Shown: positions 156-36,064 of the stretch, piece by piece
Numbering within the stretch: position 1 is the first letter of the stretch
Layout: each line of letters opens with the position of its first letter
Assembly: GCA_051000395.1 (NCBI GenBank)
Contig: JBPCOI010000078.1
Span: 15,780-79,779, forward strand
Source: Jatrophihabitantaceae bacterium
GTDB lineage: Bacteria; Actinomycetota; Actinomycetes; Mycobacteriales; Jatrophihabitantaceae
DNA length: 64,000 bases
Direction: 5' to 3'
Made by a program: the position numbers and the translations under genes
The notes under the pieces: model-generated
Database searches by the model: none
The model's input: the letters and a program-made list of their open reading frames with translations, nothing else
Told to the model about the DNA's origin: nothing

Positions 156-2041
<1,886 letters not shown>

Positions 2042-2131
2042 GGTTGCTCCTTGATTGACGTTGGTGGGTTGAGGCCGGGGTGCCTGTGATCGTCGCCGAC
2101 CACCGGTGACATCGCGGCGTCTATCAAGACA

Positions 2132-2152
2132 ACTGAGTCGGAGCCGCTCAAG
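2132..2152 (-). promoter_or_regulatory. HAIR-like HspR operator upstream of dnaK
   Basis: On the dnaK strand reads CTTGAGC-N7-ACTCAGT, 11/14 match to the HspR-associated inverted repeat CTTGAGT-N7-ACTCAAG. Lies 91-111 nt upstream of the dnaK ATG. Confidence 0.5.
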
Positions 2153-2195
2153 TTCCGTCGGTGGTTGTGATCTGTGTCACAGCCGTTCTGGGACT

Positions 2196-2221
2196 GCCCG
2201 TCCGCTCTGGTGGGGACGGGC
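2196..2221 (-). terminator. Hairpin abutting the stop of the upstream minus-strand gene
   Basis: 8-bp perfect stem gcccgtcc (2196-2203) / ggacgggc (2214-2221) with a 10-nt loop, directly after stop codon 2222-2224. No clear U-tract. Confidence 0.3.
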
Positions 2222-3811
2222 TCAGGAGCCGAGCAGGCCGCCGAGGCTGCCGCCCAGTACGTACACGCCGGGAGCGGTGGTGCGCAGGGACGTCCACCCG
2301 GCGCCGTCGTCGCTCACGCTCGCCGCCAGGTTCGTGCTGCGTTCCGCGGCGTGCAGGAACTTCGACCACCGCACTCGGACCGTCACCGCGCAGGTGCACG
2401 GAACCGCCACCGTCACCTGCGCCTGACTGGCGGAGACCATCGACGCCGGCGGGGCCACGATCGGGGTCGGGCGCACGACGCGGAACAGCTGCCAGTCCGT
2501 GGTCTGCCAGATCGGCACCAGGTAAGGCAGTGACGCGGTCTCGACGAGGTGGTACTCGGCGTCGTTGCTGACGCTCAACGCGGGCATCGCGACGTAGCCG
2601 ACCGCGTTGTTCTCCAGCCACACCTTGTACGTGGTGGCGTCCAGGTGCTTGCCCTGGATCGCGCCGTTGAGCTCGTTGTCCTCCTGAGTCTCCCAGCCGC
2701 GCGCCAGGGCGGCGTGGTTCAGCAATGCGTCATAGGCCGCGTGCGCCCCGTGGTTGACCACCTCGACGCGGTACTTCTGCAGCCCGCTGATGCTGTCCAG
2801 CTCGGTGGCCAGCGGCTGGTAGTAGCCGACGGAGGAGACCGGGTTGCCGGCATTGCGCAGGTCGACGATCGTCCCGCTCGTGCCGGTGAGCAGCAGCGGG
2901 AAGGCCACCAGGACCAGGATCCAGGTACGGAACGCGCTCAGCGCGACCACGGCGACCGGCAGACAGAACCAGACGATGCGCGCGACGTTGGAGCCCATGC
3001 CGTTCGGGAAAGTGGCGAGTACGAGGGTCGCGATCAGCGACACCCAGATCGTGGTGCGCAGCCAGACGGGCGGGCGCGCCAGCAGGAGCAGCAGCAGTCC
3101 GGCAACGGCCTCCAGCTTCAGCGTGCCGGAGAACGGTTCGGGGCCGGGCGTGCCGAAGACCAGGCCGACGGCGCCGAGCCCGACACCGATCGCGACGATC
3201 GTGATCCACGCGATGCGGCGGTAGTCGCGATAGGAGATGAACACGCCCGACAGGCCCATGGCCAGGAACACGCCCGTCACCGGGGAGGCGAGGATGCTGA
3301 GCAGGCCGAGCAGCACGGCTGCCGTCAGCCTGCGGTTGCGCACGCAGATCAGCGCGCCGATCGCGATGGCCGCGCCGAACAGGAACGGCACGCGTCCGCT
3401 CCACAGGTTGACGGCCGCGGCGTAGGCGGCGATGGCGGTGCCGGCCAGCGGGTGCGCAGTGCCGCGCAGCAGCGGCATACACAGCAGCGGGATCGCCACC
3501 GCGGACAGGGCCGCCAGCAGCTCGGTGGTGATCAGCGCGGACAGGTAGGGGGTCAGCACCGAGTAGTTGCCCGGCGTGGATCCGCCACCGAACCACGAGA
3601 ACCAGTACGTCAGGCCGACACCGTTCTGCACCGCAGAGGCACGTGCCCGCGCGGCCCACAGATCGTTGACGTCAGGCCGCACCACCAAGAACGCGATCGC
3701 GTTCAGCGCCGCCAATACCAACGGCGCGAACCGCCCGAGAGCGTTCAGCCCACCGGCTGGTTGCCGGGCTAGCCGCAGCCCGCCCAGCCTGCCCTCGGCG
3801 ACTGCGGTCAC
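2222..3811 (-). CDS. Polytopic membrane protein with C-terminal extracytoplasmic domain (GT-C-like glycosyltransferase candidate)
   Basis: Only the last ~530 codons of the 744-aa track ORF are credible. The upstream part overlaps the DUF4012 gene and is Arg/Pro-rich. GTG at 3811. Roughly 10-12 hydrophobic segments, then a ~200-aa soluble domain. Confidence 0.6.
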   Translation of the reverse strand: MTAVAEGRLGGLRLARQPAGGLNALGRFAPLVLAALNAIAFLVVRPDVNDLWAARARASAVQNGVGLTYWFSWFGGGSTPGNYSVLTPYLSALITTELLAALSAVAIPLLCMPLLRGTAHPLAGTAIAAYAAAVNLWSGRVPFLFGAAIAIGALICVRNRRLTAAVLLGLLSILASPVTGVFLAMGLSGVFISYRDYRRIAWITIVAIGVGLGAVGLVFGTPGPEPFSGTLKLEAVAGLLLLLLARPPVWLRTTIWVSLIATLVLATFPNGMGSNVARIVWFCLPVAVVALSAFRTWILVLVAFPLLLTGTSGTIVDLRNAGNPVSSVGYYQPLATELDSISGLQKYRVEVVNHGAHAAYDALLNHAALARGWETQEDNELNGAIQGKHLDATTYKVWLENNAVGYVAMPALSVSNDAEYHLVETASLPYLVPIWQTTDWQLFRVVRPTPIVAPPASMVSASQAQVTVAVPCTCAVTVRVRWSKFLHAAERSTNLAASVSDDGAGWTSLRTTAPGVYVLGGSLGGLLGS

Positions 3812-32175: not shown

Positions 32176-32370
32176 GGTGCGCGGTACTCCTCCGGGACGG
32201 TCTGCGCTGAGCAGGGGCAGCGGCAGGGATTGCGAATCCACGAACCGTAGCCGATCCTTACCGCGAGGTGTGCCGCACAGGCGTTCGGCGCTTGACGTCA
32301 TTTGGCCGACCCCGCTCTGGACGGGCGCGATATCCTTCCGGCAGTTTTGTCATCCGACGAGAGGCAAGTC

Positions 32371-35184
32371 GTGGACCTGCGTGACTACTTGCGTGTCCTG
32401 CGCAAGGGCTGGCCGCTGATCCTGGCGTTCGTGGTGCTCGGGTCGGCAGCGGGTATCGGGCTCACCGTCACCACGTCGAAGGTCTACCAGGGGACGGCGC
32501 AGGTCTTCGTCTCGGCCACCCCAAACGACAGCGTCGCCGCGCTGGCACAGGGCAACAGCTTCACCCAGGACCGGGTGCAGTCCTACGTCGACCTCGCGAA
32601 CAGCCCCGCCGTCACCGCGGCGGTCGTCAAGGAGCTCGGGCTGAGCATGAGCCAGCAGACGCTGGCCAGCAAGATCACAGCGGACGCACCGCAGAACAAG
32701 GTGCTCATCAACCTGCACGTCACCGACCACGACCCTAATCAGGCGGCCCGGCTGACCAACGCGGTCGCGGCGCAGTTTGACACGTTCGTCGAGAACACCG
32801 AGCAGACCGACGCGACGGGCAAGCCGGTCATCAAGTTGACCCTCGTGCATCCGGCCACGGTGCCGAGTTCGCCGATCAAGCCCAGCAAGATCATCAATAT
32901 CGGGCTCGGTTTCGTGCTGGGCCTGCTGCTCGGGATCGGTTTCGTCTTCCTGCGCGACGTGCTCGACAACACCGTCAAGGGACCGCAGGACTTCGACGAA
33001 CTCGGCATCCCAGTGCTCGGCCTCGTGCCGTTCGACAAGCGCACCCCGAAGATCCCGATCGCCTTCCGCGGCGACCCGCACAGCGCGCGGTCGGAGGCAT
33101 ACCGGCAGATGCGCACCAACATGCAGTTCATCAACGTAGACCACGCGCCGCGCGTCATCGCCGTTACCAGCGCCGTGCCCGGCGAGGGCAAGACGACGAC
33201 CGCGCTCAACCTCGCCGCCGCGCTGGCCGAGGGCGGATTCCGTGTCTGCCTGGTCGAGGCGGACCTGCGCCGGCCGACGCTGGCCAAGACGCTCGGCCTC
33301 GTCGGCGACGTCGGCTTCACCACGGTGCTCATCGGCAAGGCCCGCGTCGAGGACGTGCTGCAGAACGCCGGGCGCAACCTGGCCGTGCTCACCTGCGGAC
33401 CGGTGCCGCCCAACCCCAGCGAGCTGCTCATCACCGAGCAGGCCAGCACGATCATCCGGCGCATCGCCGAGAAGGTCGACTTCACGATCATCGACACCGC
33501 GCCGCTGCTGCCCGTCGCCGACGGCGCGGAGGTGGCCGCGATGGCCGACGCCACCCTGGTTGTGCATCACGCCGGCAAGTCGACCAAGGACCAGGCTGCC
33601 CGCTCGATCGAACGGCTGGCCCAGGTAGGAGAGCGCCCGGTAGGCGTCATCCTGAACATGATCACTCGCGCGCGGGGCAACTACGACTACAGCTACGGCT
33701 ACTACTACGCCTACCGCCCCGACCGCAGTGGCGCGAAGCGCCGCAAGGACGCCGGGGAGGCGCAGCAGCTGCCGTCCTACGACAACGACCTGCCCGCCAC
33801 CGAGCCCGGCGCACCCGAGACCGGCGCACCCGAGACCGTGCCGGCAGTCGTGGCCGCGGCAGCGTTGCCGGCCGGTCAACCCGATGCGCTACCACCCACC
33901 GCGTCGTCGTCCACCGATTCGCTTTCCGGCGATTCGTTGTCCACCGGGCGCATCGACTCGCGCTCGGACGACGCGGTGTCGCGTTCGGGGGGATCGCGGC
34001 GCCGGCACCTGCGCAAGTCAGACAGCGAGCGGCGAGCGCCGAAACAGCGCCGAGGCGCCCGCGAGGCGGCGCCGAACGAGGGCCCCGTTGCCGAGCCCGC
34101 TGGTGCCGAGCCAGCCGTTCTCGATGCCGCCATCGCCGAACCTCCCGTTGCCGAACCTCCCGTTGCCGAGCCCGCCGTTGCCGAGGCCGGCATCGCCGAA
34201 CCTCCCGTCGCCGAGCGGGCCGTTGCCGAACCTCCCGTCGCCGAGCCGGCCGTTGCCGAACCTGCTGGTGCCGAACCTGCTGGTGCCGAACCTCCCGTTG
34301 CCGAGCCGGCCGTTGCCGAACCTCCCGTCGCTGAGCCGGCTGGTGCCGAACCCGCCGTTGCCGACTCGCTCGCTTCCGAACCGGCAGCCGAGACACCTGC
34401 GCCCGAGGCTCAGCCGCAGGACGCGCAGATTCCGCTCGCCCCCTACCAGCCGGCGCACCCGGAGCATTCGGGCCTGTCCAACGGACAGCTCGCGCACGCG
34501 CCAGTCGACCGGCACAGCGCCTCCGCGTCGACCAGGGCGATCTGGCTAGGCGTCCCGGACGCCGAGCCGCCGGAGCACGTCTCGCCGGAGGCGCAGACCC
34601 TCGAGGTGCCCGCCGTGGGCACCGGGTCTCCTGAGACGACCGCGCAGCCGTCCCAGGAGGACGCGGTCACCGAGCCTGCGCCAGCAGAGAGCGCAGTGCC
34701 GGAGCCGACCTCGGCGGAGCAGGCCGACGAGCTCGCGCCGCACGGTCTGGATGCGCTCTGGACGACGTCGAGCACGCTGCCGGCCGTGGACTCCGCCTCG
34801 GCGCACTCGGCTCGTTCCCACCGCCGGCGGGGCCTGTTCGCTGCCAAGCGCAAGGAGCAATCCCGTGGTGAGCAGGCACCGGCCCTGCCGGACCTGCGGA
34901 CCGAGGAATTCCTTCGGGGCACCGCCGGGCCGCATCACGGGCTGCCCTCGACCGCGTCCGATACGACAGACGCCAACGCGGGCGAACCGGACGCCGCGCA
35001 CGCCGCCGTCGAGCCTGTCGACGCGGAGCCGGTGGCGCAGCCCATATACGCGCCGGCCCACTTCGTCCCGCCGGGCGCGGCCCTCTCCGCCGAGCGGCCG
35101 AGCGAGGATGACGAGCATCCCGAGTTCGGTACGCCGGTGCCGGAGCAGCGCCTTCCGATCTGGACGGGCGAGCCGCAGGGCTGA
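32371..35184 (+). CDS. Wzc-type polysaccharide co-polymerase / BY-tyrosine kinase with long repeat-bearing C-terminal tail
   Basis: GTG 32371 after GAGAGG (TTG 32302 is the alternative). Wzz-like TM-loop-TM. Walker A VTSAVPGEGKTTTALNLA. Tyr cluster NYDYSYGYYYAY (33682-33714), then a ~490-aa Pro/Ala/Glu-rich tail. Confidence 0.88.
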   Translation: MDLRDYLRVLRKGWPLILAFVVLGSAAGIGLTVTTSKVYQGTAQVFVSATPNDSVAALAQGNSFTQDRVQSYVDLANSPAVTAAVVKELGLSMSQQTLASKITADAPQNKVLINLHVTDHDPNQAARLTNAVAAQFDTFVENTEQTDATGKPVIKLTLVHPATVPSSPIKPSKIINIGLGFVLGLLLGIGFVFLRDVLDNTVKGPQDFDELGIPVLGLVPFDKRTPKIPIAFRGDPHSARSEAYRQMRTNMQFINVDHAPRVIAVTSAVPGEGKTTTALNLAAALAEGGFRVCLVEADLRRPTLAKTLGLVGDVGFTTVLIGKARVEDVLQNAGRNLAVLTCGPVPPNPSELLITEQASTIIRRIAEKVDFTIIDTAPLLPVADGAEVAAMADATLVVHHAGKSTKDQAARSIERLAQVGERPVGVILNMITRARGNYDYSYGYYYAYRPDRSGAKRRKDAGEAQQLPSYDNDLPATEPGAPETGAPETVPAVVAAAALPAGQPDALPPTASSSTDSLSGDSLSTGRIDSRSDDAVSRSGGSRRRHLRKSDSERRAPKQRRGAREAAPNEGPVAEPAGAEPAVLDAAIAEPPVAEPPVAEPAVAEAGIAEPPVAERAVAEPPVAEPAVAEPAGAEPAGAEPPVAEPAVAEPPVAEPAGAEPAVADSLASEPAAETPAPEAQPQDAQIPLAPYQPAHPEHSGLSNGQLAHAPVDRHSASASTRAIWLGVPDAEPPEHVSPEAQTLEVPAVGTGSPETTAQPSQEDAVTEPAPAESAVPEPTSAEQADELAPHGLDALWTTSSTLPAVDSASAHSARSHRRRGLFAAKRKEQSRGEQAPALPDLRTEEFLRGTAGPHHGLPSTASDTTDANAGEPDAAHAAVEPVDAEPVAQPIYAPAHFVPPGAALSAERPSEDDEHPEFGTPVPEQRLPIWTGEPQG
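34084..34383 (+). repeat. ~20 tandem 15-nt units (cct ccc gtt gcc gaa and variants) encoding [PA]-[VG]-A-E-P pentapeptides
   Basis: Read directly: PVAEP AGAEP ... PVAEP PVAEP AVAEA GIAEP PVAER AVAEP PVAEP AVAEP AGAEP AGAEP PVAEP AVAEP PVAEP AGAEP. In frame within the kinase tail. Confidence 0.9.
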
Positions 35185-35205: not shown

Positions 35206-35361
35206 TCAGAAGACGATGATCGCGAGCACGACAGCGATGAAGATCAGTGCGACCCCGGCAGAGATCATGTTCAGGGCCATCGTCCCGTTGGGGGTATGGC
35301 GCGACCAGCGCTTGAGCCGACGGTAGGGGCGGCCAAGACGGGACCGACGCGGATTGCTCAC
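35206..35361 (-). CDS. Possible 51-aa tail-anchored small membrane protein
   Basis: GTG 35361. Basic N-half (SNPRRSRLGRPYRRLKRWSRH) then one TM (MISAGVALIFIAVVLAIIVF) ending at the stop. It fills the gap between the kinase and the PTP genes. No homology recognised. Confidence 0.3.
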   Translation of the reverse strand: MSNPRRSRLGRPYRRLKRWSRHTPNGTMALNMISAGVALIFIAVVLAIIVF

Positions 35362-35428: not shown

Positions 35429-36064
35429 TCACCGCTCGGCCGGCAGGCCGACACCCAGCGTCGCGATGACGGCGTCGAGCGCCTGCGCGATCTCGGCGGC
35501 GCAATCGCGCGCAACCTGCAGGGGAGCGCCGAACGGGTCCCCGATCTCGTCCGCGCCGGGCTCGGGCGCGTCGGCCCGGCCGCGCTGGTCGGCCACCGCC
35601 GCGACCCGCTGCCGCAGGCTCGTCGTGGTCGGCGGCGGGGGCGGCGGGGGCGGCCAGGCGAAGTGCTGCGCAGCCGGTGTCGGGGGTGCCAACGTGGCGC
35701 CCAGGCGGCCGAACTCGCGGATCGTGAACGCCCGCCGGAACACGGCCGGTTGGTCCTGCACGATCGCCGAGCGGTGCGCGGTCTCGGCGCTCAGGATCAG
35801 ATCCGCGTCCGCAACCATCGCCGAGCTCAGCATCCGTCCCACGTGCTCGGCACCGTCGCCGCCCAGTTCCCGCAGGGCTTGCTCGCACGCGGCATCCATC
35901 GGGTAGCCGATGAGCGCCATCGTCCCGGCACTCGAGATGATCATCGGCGCCTCAGCCGGGACCCGCGCCCGGAACAGGCGCTCGGCGATCGGCGAGCGGC
36001 AGATGTTGCCGGTGCAGACGAACAGCACCGAGAAGCTCACGCGGCGACTATGCCAGACGCGCAT
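35429..36064 (-). CDS. Low-molecular-weight protein-tyrosine phosphatase
   Basis: P-loop VLFVCTGNICRSP and DP acid loop IGDPFG. Contains an insertion with eight consecutive Pro. Confidence 0.88.
   Translation of the reverse strand: MRVWHSRRVSFSVLFVCTGNICRSPIAERLFRARVPAEAPMIISSAGTMALIGYPMDAACEQALRELGGDGAEHVGRMLSSAMVADADLILSAETAHRSAIVQDQPAVFRRAFTIREFGRLGATLAPPTPAAQHFAWPPPPPPPPTTTSLRQRVAAVADQRGRADAPEPGADEIGDPFGAPLQVARDCAAEIAQALDAVIATLGVGLPAER

What the first reader, a model, noticed from the sequence alone, without database searches (positions are those of the whole stretch)
33682..35184. BY-kinase whose tyrosine cluster is followed by a ~490-aa acidic Pro/Ala tail with ~20 pentapeptide repeats
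In Wzc/CapB-type kinases the autophosphorylated Tyr cluster (here NYDYSYGYYYAY, 33682-33714) normally ends the protein. Here it is followed by ~490 further residues of low-complexity sequence. That tail includes about twenty tandem [PA][VG]AEP units encoded by a 15-nt DNA repeat (34084-34383). The repeat could expand or contract by slippage in multiples of 15 nt and would stay in frame. The tail might act as a spacer or scaffold, or as an intramolecular regulator of access to the Tyr cluster.
Basis: seen in the sequence. Interest (0 to 1): 0.55.

Follow-up and report, generated by a model that had tools for sequence, protein, structure and literature searches.

The report
Tyrosine kinase with giant disordered tail
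A soil actinobacterium's sugar-polymer-regulating tyrosine kinase really does carry a 489-residue floppy, acidic tail after its phosphorylation site. Shorter tails of this kind are normal in its relatives, and this one was inflated by a recent repeat expansion, so it is an extreme variant, not a new system.

Summary
Window 32371-35184 (+) encodes a fused Wzz/P-loop BY-kinase of 937 aa (960 aa from the upstream TTG). All catalytic motifs are intact. The Tyr cluster lies at 33679-33714 and 489 residues follow it, including 20 pentapeptide units at 34084-34383.

The extension is genuine coding sequence:
- it has no stop where about 6.6 are expected;
- GC3 stays at 0.82-0.90 outside the array;
- a second assembly has the same frame;
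- orthologues share the very C-terminal motif and the same downstream genes.

AlphaFold2 gives a folded core (1-433) and a coil with pLDDT 33-57 for 434-937. The tail has no Pfam domain and no homologue outside its own lineage.

In this clade a post-cluster tail is the rule, with a median of 52-62 aa. About 3% of cluster representatives reach 480 aa or more, with their own repeats.

The array uses atypical codons, so it is probably young, and it differs by two units in a 97%-identical relative.

Best reading: a fast-evolving disordered spacer between conserved short motifs (YRPDRS, PSYDNDLPA, C-terminal PIWTGE), that is, a tethered docking peptide. Function is untested. Earlier scan notes record other BY-kinase tail variants on other DNA, but not this one.

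The parts
32371..35184 (+). BY-kinase gene, 937 aa plus stop. The longest ORF starts at TTG 32302.
   Evidence: ORF list. GTG start with GAGAGG RBS. NCBI form is 937 aa. Pfam Wzz, GNVR and P-loop domains.
32410..32967 (+). Transmembrane activation domain: TM1 (aa 14-34), extracytoplasmic Wzz loop, TM2 (aa 173-199).
   Evidence: AF2 helices 14-34 and 173-199. Highest hydropathy window at aa 174. Pfam Wzz/GNVR.
33094..33114 (+). ExxRxxR oligomerisation motif (EAYRQMR).
   Evidence: Regex on the translation. The motif is defined in PMC9800525.
33181..33198 (+). Walker A (GEGKTT).
   Evidence: Columns G273 and K274 are invariant in 40 homologues.
33247..33270 (+). Walker A' (CLVEADLR).
   Evidence: E296, D298, R300 and R301 are invariant.
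33481..33504 (+). Walker B (FTIIDTAP).
   Evidence: Read from the translation. D375 and P378 are invariant. It aligns to CapB 'FVIIDTPP'.
33679..33714 (+). Tyr cluster NYDYSYGYYYAY (7 Tyr in 12 residues).
   Evidence: It aligns to the chain ends of the solved BY-kinases.
33715..33747 (+). Basic motif next to the cluster, RPDRSGAKRRK ('YRPxRS', conserved family-wide).
   Evidence: R449 is invariant and P450 is at least 90% conserved.
33772..33798 (+). PSYDNDLPA motif, shared with the closest short-tailed homologues.
   Evidence: P0125, P0133, P0003, P0132.
33800..33838 (+). Mini-repeat GAPET, 2.6 x 15 nt.
   Evidence: TRF.
33979..34062 (+). Basic island 1 (SRSGGSRRRHLRKSDSERRAPKQRRGAR) inside the acidic tail.
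   Evidence: Charge profile: +6 per 20 aa.
34084..34383 (+). Array of 20 pentapeptide units (PVAEP/AVAEP/AGAEP) from a 15-nt repeat with 30- and 60-nt super-periods.
   Evidence: GC3 is 0.60 here against 0.93 in the core. A 2-unit indel separates it from P0001.
34384..35142 (+). Distal non-repetitive acidic Pro/Ala/Ser spacer, lineage-specific. It contains basic island 2 (SHRRRGLFAAKRKEQSRG, 34816-34869).
   Evidence: No relatives found. pLDDT below 57. Charge profile.
35143..35181 (+). C-terminal motif EQRLPIWTGEPQG. The P-[IV]-x-T-G-[ED] core is conserved at the very end of orthologues.
35206..35361 (-). Convergent 51-aa basic, tail-anchored small ORF (context only).
   Evidence: 55-82% identity in at least 11 other genomes of the family, usually beside the phosphatase.
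35429..36064 (-). Partner LMW phosphotyrosine phosphatase (context only).
   Evidence: Pfam LMWPc, 2.3e-19. Syntenic in orthologous loci.

Best explanation
The gene encodes a catalytically competent, membrane-anchored BY-kinase (fused activation domain plus P-loop kinase) of a polysaccharide assembly locus.

Shown:
- Its cytoplasmic C-terminus continues past the autophosphorylated Tyr cluster as an intrinsically disordered, strongly acidic region.
- That region consists of conserved short motifs at the two ends, separated by a spacer that is conserved in neither length nor sequence. The motifs are the basic YRPDRS..KRRK patch, PSYDNDLPA, and the very C-terminal LPIWTGEP peptide.
- In this lineage the spacer grew to about 8 times the clade median, partly through recent amplification of a 15-nt unit that still gains and loses whole units.

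Inferred:
- The tail works like the disordered linker plus conserved terminal peptide of SSB or FtsZ. It would be a flexible leash that keeps a docking peptide near the kinase ring to bind a partner that is not yet identified.
- The exact length of the leash would be under weak constraint.
- The extreme length would be largely a tolerated by-product of repeat expansion in a GC-rich genome, not an adaptation.
For: Real coding sequence:
- Stop-free frame, p about 0.001.
- Codon-position GC.
- Same frame in an independent assembly.
- The orthologous C-terminal motif and the same downstream small ORF and LMW-PTP bracket the tail in G012 and G014. The extra residues are therefore internal growth, not read-through.

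Kinase intact:
- Walker A, A' and B, ExxRxxR and the Tyr cluster are present.

Disorder:
- AF2 gives pLDDT 75-93 for residues 1-433, and 33-57 with no secondary structure for 434-937.
- No hydrophobic segment in the tail and no Pfam domain.

Spacer not conserved:
- The tail alone finds no homologue, and none in JGI metagenomes or GTDB genomes.
- Against P0001 there are 0 substitutions in 448 core residues and 13 in 478 tail residues, plus one indel (Fisher p = 0.002, counting the Val/Met start-codon difference as one core change).
- Tail lengths run from 6 to 479 aa in 179 close homologues.

Motifs conserved:
- P[ILVMS]W[TF][GR] occurs in 10 of 179 tails, always 8-11 residues from the C-terminus and nowhere else.
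- The best match to the last 13 residues lies at the C-terminus in 33 of 152 tails, against 15.7 expected and 6-22 for seven control probes.
- Aligned ends are shown.
- Other subclades keep their own terminal motifs.

Recent expansion:
- The array uses GAA 10/18, GTT 10/13 and CCT 8/23, against 2/15, 2/48 and 1/26 in the core.
- The G012 orthologue has only 1-2 VAEP-like units.
Against: - No partner for the terminal peptide was identified. AF2 did not dock it onto the kinase domain (pLDDT about 36 at the end).
- A tested link to the neighbouring small ORF failed.
- The PIWTGE-type motif is seen in only a minority of homologues.
- The Pro/Ala/Glu-rich composition is what GC-rich sequence yields, so much of the tail may have no function at all.
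- The 2-unit difference comes from two short-read metagenome assemblies and could be a collapse of the repeat during assembly.
Confidence: 0.55

Rival explanations
1. The bulk properties of the tail are the function. Eight tails of about 490 aa and charge -44, hanging from the octameric kinase ring, would act as a polyanionic brush. The brush would bias ring assembly and disassembly, mimicking or adding to the charge repulsion normally created by Tyr-cluster phosphorylation, or it would limit phosphatase access. Polymer length would change as a result.
For: - Net charge is -44, with acidic blocks of -3 to -5 per 20 aa.
- Acidic tails recur in unrelated BY-kinases: P0031 -47, P0362 -90, P0351 -46.
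- The accepted model holds that negative charge at the cluster drives ring dissociation (PMC9800525).
Against: - Many homologous tails are near neutral or basic, with net charge from -10 to +10 in most of the 120 listed.
- Length varies about 80-fold without loss of the gene.
- The closest orthologues manage with 54-77 aa.
Confidence: 0.2
2. The array is a contingency locus. Frequent slippage would generate within-population length variants that tune kinase behaviour.
For: - The unit is 15 nt, so any change stays in frame.
- There is a 10-aa indel against a 97%-identical relative.
- Independent pentapeptide arrays occur in other tails: SDVAA in G013 and EPIHV in P0303.
Against: - Copies are only 72% alike at period 15, and the longest exact repeat is 25 nt. 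That is a poor substrate for high-frequency slippage.
- The change alters 10 of 489 disordered residues.
- There are no read-level data.
Confidence: 0.07
3. The tail is an artefact: a frameshift, a misassembly, or a fusion with a downstream gene.
For: The genome is a 99-contig metagenome-assembled genome. GC-rich DNA gives long spurious ORFs.
Against: - The frame is the only stop-free one, and the GC3 signal fits it.
- A second assembly has the same ORF.
- The ORF ends with the orthologous terminal motif just upstream of the same neighbouring genes.
- No standalone homologue of the tail exists.
Confidence: 0.03

Closest known systems
Characterised BY-kinases: E. coli Wzc (K-12, K30) and Etk, S. 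aureus CapA/CapB, V. cholerae VpsO, Burkholderia BceF
   Same: - P-loop kinase with Walker A, A' and B, ExxRxxR and a Tyr cluster (E 2.5e-36 to 4e-27 against the solved chains).
- Wzz-type two-helix membrane domain.
- Neighbouring LMW-PTP.
- Wzx/Wzy-type glycan locus.
   Different: All solved chains end within about 10 residues of the position matching the end of this Tyr cluster. Here 489 residues follow. The extracytoplasmic loop is short (about 140 aa), as in Gram-positive systems, but it is fused to the kinase.
Other actinobacterial BY-kinases with post-cluster tails (e.g. P0255 962 aa, P0274 1130 aa, P0303 1203 aa, P0362 802 aa, P0031 747 aa)
   Same: - Same domain order, followed by a Pfam-free, low-complexity tail that often carries repeats.
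- Each subclade has its own conserved terminal motif.
- Tails of 350-750 aa occur.
   Different: The tail sequences are unrelated to this one, and the repeats are different (GSGGPGSG, HDRQAPGPQA, EPIHV). This tail is found only in the window's lineage.
Disordered linker plus conserved terminal peptide of bacterial SSB and FtsZ (analogy from general knowledge; the SSB C-terminal tip is mentioned in the abstract of PMC13490951)
   Same: A spacer that varies in length and sequence between species and ends in a short conserved peptide at the very C-terminus.
   Different: The proteins are unrelated. For SSB and FtsZ the binding partners of the peptide are known, while here none is known.
Expanded Gly-Tyr tails of Clostridia BY-kinases (earlier scan note e1-3702478)
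   Same: A BY-kinase C-terminal tail expanded by an in-frame repeat, judged an extreme variant that is normal for its clade.
   Different: There the Tyr cluster itself is expanded. Here the Tyr cluster is ordinary and the growth lies beyond it, without Tyr.

Membership tests
BY-kinase (bacterial tyrosine autokinase, PCP-2 type) | Walker A GxxGxGK[ST] | tested here: met
   PGEGKTT at aa 270-276. G273 and K274 are invariant in 40 homologues.
BY-kinase (bacterial tyrosine autokinase, PCP-2 type) | Walker A' hhhhDxDxR | tested here: met
   CLVEADLRR at aa 293-301. It aligns to CapB 'LIVDGDMRKP'.
BY-kinase (bacterial tyrosine autokinase, PCP-2 type) | Walker B hhhhDTPP | tested here: met
   FTIIDTAP at aa 371-378. 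It aligns to CapB 'FVIIDTPP'. D375 and P378 are invariant.
BY-kinase (bacterial tyrosine autokinase, PCP-2 type) | Cluster of autophosphorylatable Tyr after the last strand of the P-loop domain | tested here: met
   7 Tyr in NYDYSYGYYYAY, aa 437-448. Phosphorylation itself is not testable here.
BY-kinase (bacterial tyrosine autokinase, PCP-2 type) | Tyr cluster forms the C-terminal end of the protein (as described for characterised members) | tested here: not met
   489 residues follow the cluster. Solved members end within about 10 residues of it. This feature is not met by most of the actinobacterial clade either, so it describes the studied members and does not define the family.
BY-kinase (bacterial tyrosine autokinase, PCP-2 type) | ExxRxxR oligomerisation motif at the start of the catalytic domain | tested here: met
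   EAYRQMR at aa 242-248. E242, R245 and R248 are invariant.
BY-kinase (bacterial tyrosine autokinase, PCP-2 type) | Wzz-type activation domain with two transmembrane helices | tested here: met
   Pfam Wzz 1.4e-9 and GNVR 1.2e-6. AF2 helices 14-34 and 173-199.
BY-kinase (bacterial tyrosine autokinase, PCP-2 type) | Cognate phosphotyrosine phosphatase and polysaccharide genes nearby | tested here: met
   LMWPc at 35429-36064 (-). CapD-like and CapF-like genes lie upstream. The phosphatase is syntenic in orthologues.
BY-kinase (bacterial tyrosine autokinase, PCP-2 type) | Tyrosine autokinase activity and octamer formation | not testable with these tools
   Needs biochemistry.
Intrinsically disordered linker with a C-terminal short linear motif | No stable fold | tested here: met
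   pLDDT 33-57 and no secondary structure for residues 434-937. No Pfam domain. This is a prediction only.
Intrinsically disordered linker with a C-terminal short linear motif | Terminal motif conserved in position while the linker is not | tested here: met
Intrinsically disordered linker with a C-terminal short linear motif | Motif binds a defined partner | tested here: inconclusive
   No docking in the monomer AF2 model. No specific co-occurrence with the small ORF. No multimer tool was available.

The most novel reading that the evidence does not exclude
Actinobacterial BY-kinases share an undescribed third module after the Tyr cluster: a disordered leash ending in a clade-specific docking peptide (PIWTGE, TPLWFR, FxYSQPxRYG, PFDGAAGSP and others). 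The peptide would recruit a partner, such as the phosphatase, a glycosyltransferase or the polymerase/flippase, to the kinase ring. Leash length and charge would tune the phosphorylation cycle and so the polymer length.
Probability: 0.25. Interest if true: 0.55.

Novelty: new variant of a known kind. Interest (0 to 1): 0.35.

Why it matters
Models of BY-kinase regulation rest on proteins that end at the Tyr cluster, with the cluster of one subunit reaching into the neighbour's active site. In actinobacteria the cluster is internal: it is followed by tens to hundreds of disordered residues, often ending in a conserved peptide. If that peptide docks a partner, it would add a layer of control over capsule and exopolysaccharide length in a phylum where these kinases are essentially unstudied. 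If it does not, this gene is a clear example of how repeat expansion inflates protein tails in GC-rich genomes, and of why tail length alone should not be read as function.

Tried and rejected
Scans of JGI metagenomes and GTDB genomes with the distal 261 aa of the tail found no relative.
- **Tail as a fused downstream gene.** The tail alone, searched against 5.8 billion proteins, gave one marginal low-complexity hit (E = 3.7e-3). Pfam gave only a sub-threshold Extensin-like hit (27 bits against a cut-off of 105). Rejected.
- **Terminal peptide pairs with the neighbouring 51-aa basic membrane ORF.** The small ORF also sits next to kinases that lack the motif (G080, G066, G051), and next to phosphatases with no kinase in the stretch fetched. 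Rejected as a specific link.
- **Intramolecular docking of the terminal motif.** The AF2 monomer model shows none. This is not decisive.
- **Literature.** Four full-text searches and three papers found no description of post-cluster tails in BY-kinases: PMC9800525, PMC4007543 and PMC12004946.
- **Opposite-strand or other-frame genes under the tail.** All other frames contain stops, and their codon-position GC is wrong.
Full report
**What is there.**
The ORF at 32302..35184 (+) is 960 aa from TTG. The NCBI gene call on the source contig, and the closest relative, both start at GTG 32371. This gives 937 aa, with GAGAGG 7 nt upstream. Residue numbers below use the 937-aa form.

Pfam finds Wzz (chain-length determinant), GNVR and P-loop (CbiA/AAA_31/ParA) domains, and nothing beyond residue about 457 of the 960-aa form except a sub-threshold Extensin-like low-complexity hit. 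The kinase motifs are intact:
- ExxRxxR (EAYRQMR, aa 242-248)
- Walker A (GEGKTT, aa 271-276)
- Walker A' (CLVEADLR, aa 293-300)
- Walker B (FTIIDTAP, aa 371-378)
- Tyr cluster NYDYSYGYYYAY (aa 437-448, nt 33679-33714)

The neighbours are an LMW phosphotyrosine phosphatase (35429-36064, -), CapD-like and CapF-like sugar-nucleotide enzymes, and the wider Wzx/Wzy glycan locus already noted on this window. The organism is a 2.7-Mb metagenome-assembled genome in the family that contains Jatrophihabitans.

**Is the tail real?**
After the last Tyr come 489 residues (A 20%, P 15%, E 10.6%, net charge -44). Five lines of evidence show it is translated sequence and not an artefact:
1. The frame has no stop over 1467 nt, where shuffles give 6.6 on average and only 20 of 20000 have none. 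Every other frame has 1-5 stops.
2. Third-position GC in this frame is 0.82-0.90 across the non-repeat tail and drops after the stop.
3. An independent NCBI assembly encodes the same protein at 97% identity, in the same frame to the same last residue.
4. The last residues, LPIWTGEPQG, align with the last residues of orthologues whose tails are only 54-193 aa.
5. In the G012 and G014 orthologous loci the kinase is followed by the same convergent 51-aa ORF and the same LMW-PTP as here. The additional ~410 residues are therefore internal growth between orthologous end points, not read-through.

The tail alone has no homologue in the 5.8-billion-protein collection apart from one marginal hit. Its distal 261 aa find nothing in JGI metagenomes or GTDB species genomes. 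It is not a captured gene.

**Structure.**
AlphaFold2 with a 40-sequence alignment gives pLDDT 75-93 for residues 1-433. It gives an unbroken coil with pLDDT 33-57 for residues 434-937. The tail has no hydrophobic stretch that could span a membrane (best 19-residue hydropathy 1.05), so it is cytoplasmic. Its charge is patterned: long acidic blocks (-3 to -5 per 20 aa) are interrupted by three basic islands at aa 449-459, 537-564 and 816-833.

**The repeat.**
In frame, 34084-34383 is 20 pentapeptides (PVAEP, AVAEP, AGAEP and degenerate forms). Copies are 72% alike at period 15 and 80% alike at period 60, and the longest exact repeat is 25 nt. It is the strongest tandem repeat in the window.

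Codon usage inside the array is foreign to the gene. GAA is 10/18, GTT 10/13 and CCT 8/23, against 2/15, 2/48 and 1/26 in the kinase core. GC3 is 0.60 in the array, against 0.93 in the core and 0.86 in the rest of the tail. The simplest reading is recent amplification of one unit whose codons have not yet drifted to the genome's bias. The G012 orthologue has only one or two VAEP-like units.

The 97%-identical relative lacks 10 residues (two units) inside the array and has AGAEP where the window has PVAEP/AVAEP next to the gap. So the array does gain, lose and homogenise whole units. Both sequences come from short-read metagenome assemblies, so a collapse of the repeat during assembly cannot be excluded.

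**How unusual is a tail?**
In all 15 solved BY-kinase sequences (Wzc K-12 and K30, Etk, CapAB, BceF, VpsO) the alignment to this protein reaches within about 10 residues of the chain end. Reviews describe the catalytic domain as terminating in the Tyr-cluster tail (PMC9800525; PMC4007543).

It is not correct for this clade, as two samples show:

| Sample | n | Median tail | Spread | Long tails |
|---|---|---|---|---|
| Close homologues with a recognisable cluster | 179 | 62 aa | interquartile 50-92; 95th percentile 230 | only 7 have 30 aa or fewer; next longest outside this lineage about 298 aa |
| Length-unbiased 50%-identity cluster representatives, full-length matches among the best 150 | 129 | 52 aa | 32 exceed 100 aa; 16 exceed 200 aa | 6 exceed 300 aa; 4 reach 480 aa or more |

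- Of the six longest in the second sample, two carry a folded extra domain (DUF4012, GNAT). Four (P0255, P0274, P0303, P0362) have Pfam-free, low-complexity tails of 349-749 aa with repeats of their own: GSGGPGSG-type, HDRQAPGPQA and the pentapeptide EPIHV.
- The G013 orthologue has an independent SDVAA/SGVAP pentapeptide array.
- Within the window's own genome, one paralogue has a 27-aa tail. Another, with a degenerate Walker A and no Tyr cluster, has an acidic tail of about 190 aa.
- The window's protein is therefore at the long extreme of a common but apparently undescribed feature.

**What is conserved in the tail.**
Three short elements are conserved:
- The basic 'YRPDRS..K..K' stretch directly after the cluster is family-wide. 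R449 is invariant and P450 is at least 90% conserved in 40 sequences.
- 'PSYDNDLPA', about 20 residues further on, recurs in the closest short-tailed homologues P0125, P0133, P0003 and P0132.
- The very C-terminus is conserved in position.
  - P[ILVMS]W[TF][GR] occurs in 10 of 179 tails, always 8-11 residues from the end and never elsewhere.
  - Relaxed forms (PIRTGDP, PIPTGER, PIVTGEQ, PIWTAGRE, PIWAAER) end G012, G014/P0129, P0122, P0150 and P0152.
  - Scanning 152 tails with the window's last 13 residues puts the best match within 5 residues of the C-terminus in 33 cases. Uniform placement predicts 15.7, and seven control probes from elsewhere in the tail gave 6-22.

Other subclades keep different terminal motifs: FxYSQPxRYG, PFDGAAGSP, basic RRRxRR, and a ~45-residue acidic motif shared by P0255 and P0274 behind unrelated repeats.

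By contrast the spacer evolves fast. Against P0001 there is no substitution in 448 core residues, while 478 tail residues carry 13 substitutions plus the indel (Fisher p = 0.002, counting the Val/Met start-codon difference as one core change).

**Interpretation.**
Shown:
- The tail is a real, cytoplasmic, predicted-disordered, acidic extension.
- It has conserved end motifs and a non-conserved spacer.
- The spacer was enlarged by a young repeat array that changes in unit steps.

Inferred (confidence about 0.55):
- The tail acts as a flexible leash presenting a docking peptide. This is the arrangement known for the disordered linkers and conserved terminal peptides of SSB and FtsZ (general knowledge).
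- Spacer length is weakly constrained, so the extreme length here is mostly tolerated expansion. GC-rich codons naturally give Ala/Pro/Glu-rich, disordered sequence.

Rival readings:
- The acidic bulk itself modulates ring assembly (0.2).
- The array is a contingency locus (0.07).
- The tail is an artefact (0.03).

No partner was found. AF2 did not dock the peptide on the monomer. A possible link to the adjacent, strongly basic 51-aa membrane ORF was tested and rejected. That ORF is conserved in at least 11 other genomes of the family. However, it also lies next to kinases with other termini, and next to phosphatases with no kinase in the stretch fetched.

**Limits.**
There is therefore no dN/dS and no nucleotide comparison of the arrays.
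- Disorder is a prediction.
- The homologue lists are capped at the best 120-150 hits.
- Relatives are not independent, so the counts are descriptive.
- G014 is flagged unpublished. The synteny statement for G014 (L003) rests on it. Its kinase tail sequence is also present as the public protein P0129.
- G004 and G006 (also unpublished) appear only as listed paralogues, and no claim depends on them.

**Verdict.**
This is an ordinary BY-kinase carrying an extreme, lineage-specific version of a disordered post-cluster tail that is common in actinobacteria but that I could not find described. I class it as a new variant of a known kind, of moderate-to-low interest. The conserved terminal motifs are the part worth an experiment.

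Noticed in passing
window 35206-35361 (-): The 51-aa ORF (basic head plus C-terminal transmembrane helix) between the kinase and the phosphatase is a real conserved gene. It shows 55-82% identity in at least 11 other genomes of the family, usually directly beside an LMW-PTP gene, and has a paralogue at G000:C74:23636-23782.
   Followed up: partly
G000:C30:30324-32204 (L013 about 1325-3139, +): This BY-kinase paralogue in the same genome has a degenerate Walker A (GPGVGRT, with Lys replaced by Arg), no Tyr cluster and an acidic low-complexity tail of about 190 aa. It is a candidate pseudokinase, followed by a Wzy/O-antigen-ligase-like membrane ORF.
   Followed up: no
L005 / L015 (G013:C45), kinase tail: The orthologue's 76-aa tail holds an independent tandem pentapeptide array (SDVAA/SGVAP, about 8 units). 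Pentapeptide expansion in this tail has therefore happened more than once.
   Followed up: no
proteins P0255 and P0274 (cluster representatives, 962 and 1130 aa): Two BY-kinases with unrelated long repeat tails share a near-identical ~45-residue acidic C-terminal segment (EEIPPLLVDLSAPDLDLLEDERELLIPPQ...PTGVPRHHRS). This is another clade-specific terminal motif behind a variable spacer.
   Followed up: no
proteins P0006 and P0025; window 35206-35326 (+ frame): The C-termini of two homologous kinase gene calls (…SAMVPFGVPRLHRRSRR, …SAIVPFGVWRAHRRRRR) resemble the antisense translation of the small ORF region in this window (…FRAIVPLGVWRDQRLSRR). In those contigs the kinase ORF probably runs on over the small gene's opposite strand.
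   Followed up: no
window 32302-32370: The longest ORF starts at TTG 32302 and abuts the divergent CapD-like ORF's longest start at 32301. The likely true starts are GTG 32371 for the kinase and an internal Met for the CapD-like gene, which leaves a normal divergent intergenic region.
   Followed up: partly
L023 (G051:C5), kinase P0031-like: This orthologue (67% identity) has an acidic tail of about 300 aa (net charge -47) of unrelated sequence, again followed by the small ORF and the LMW-PTP.
   Followed up: no
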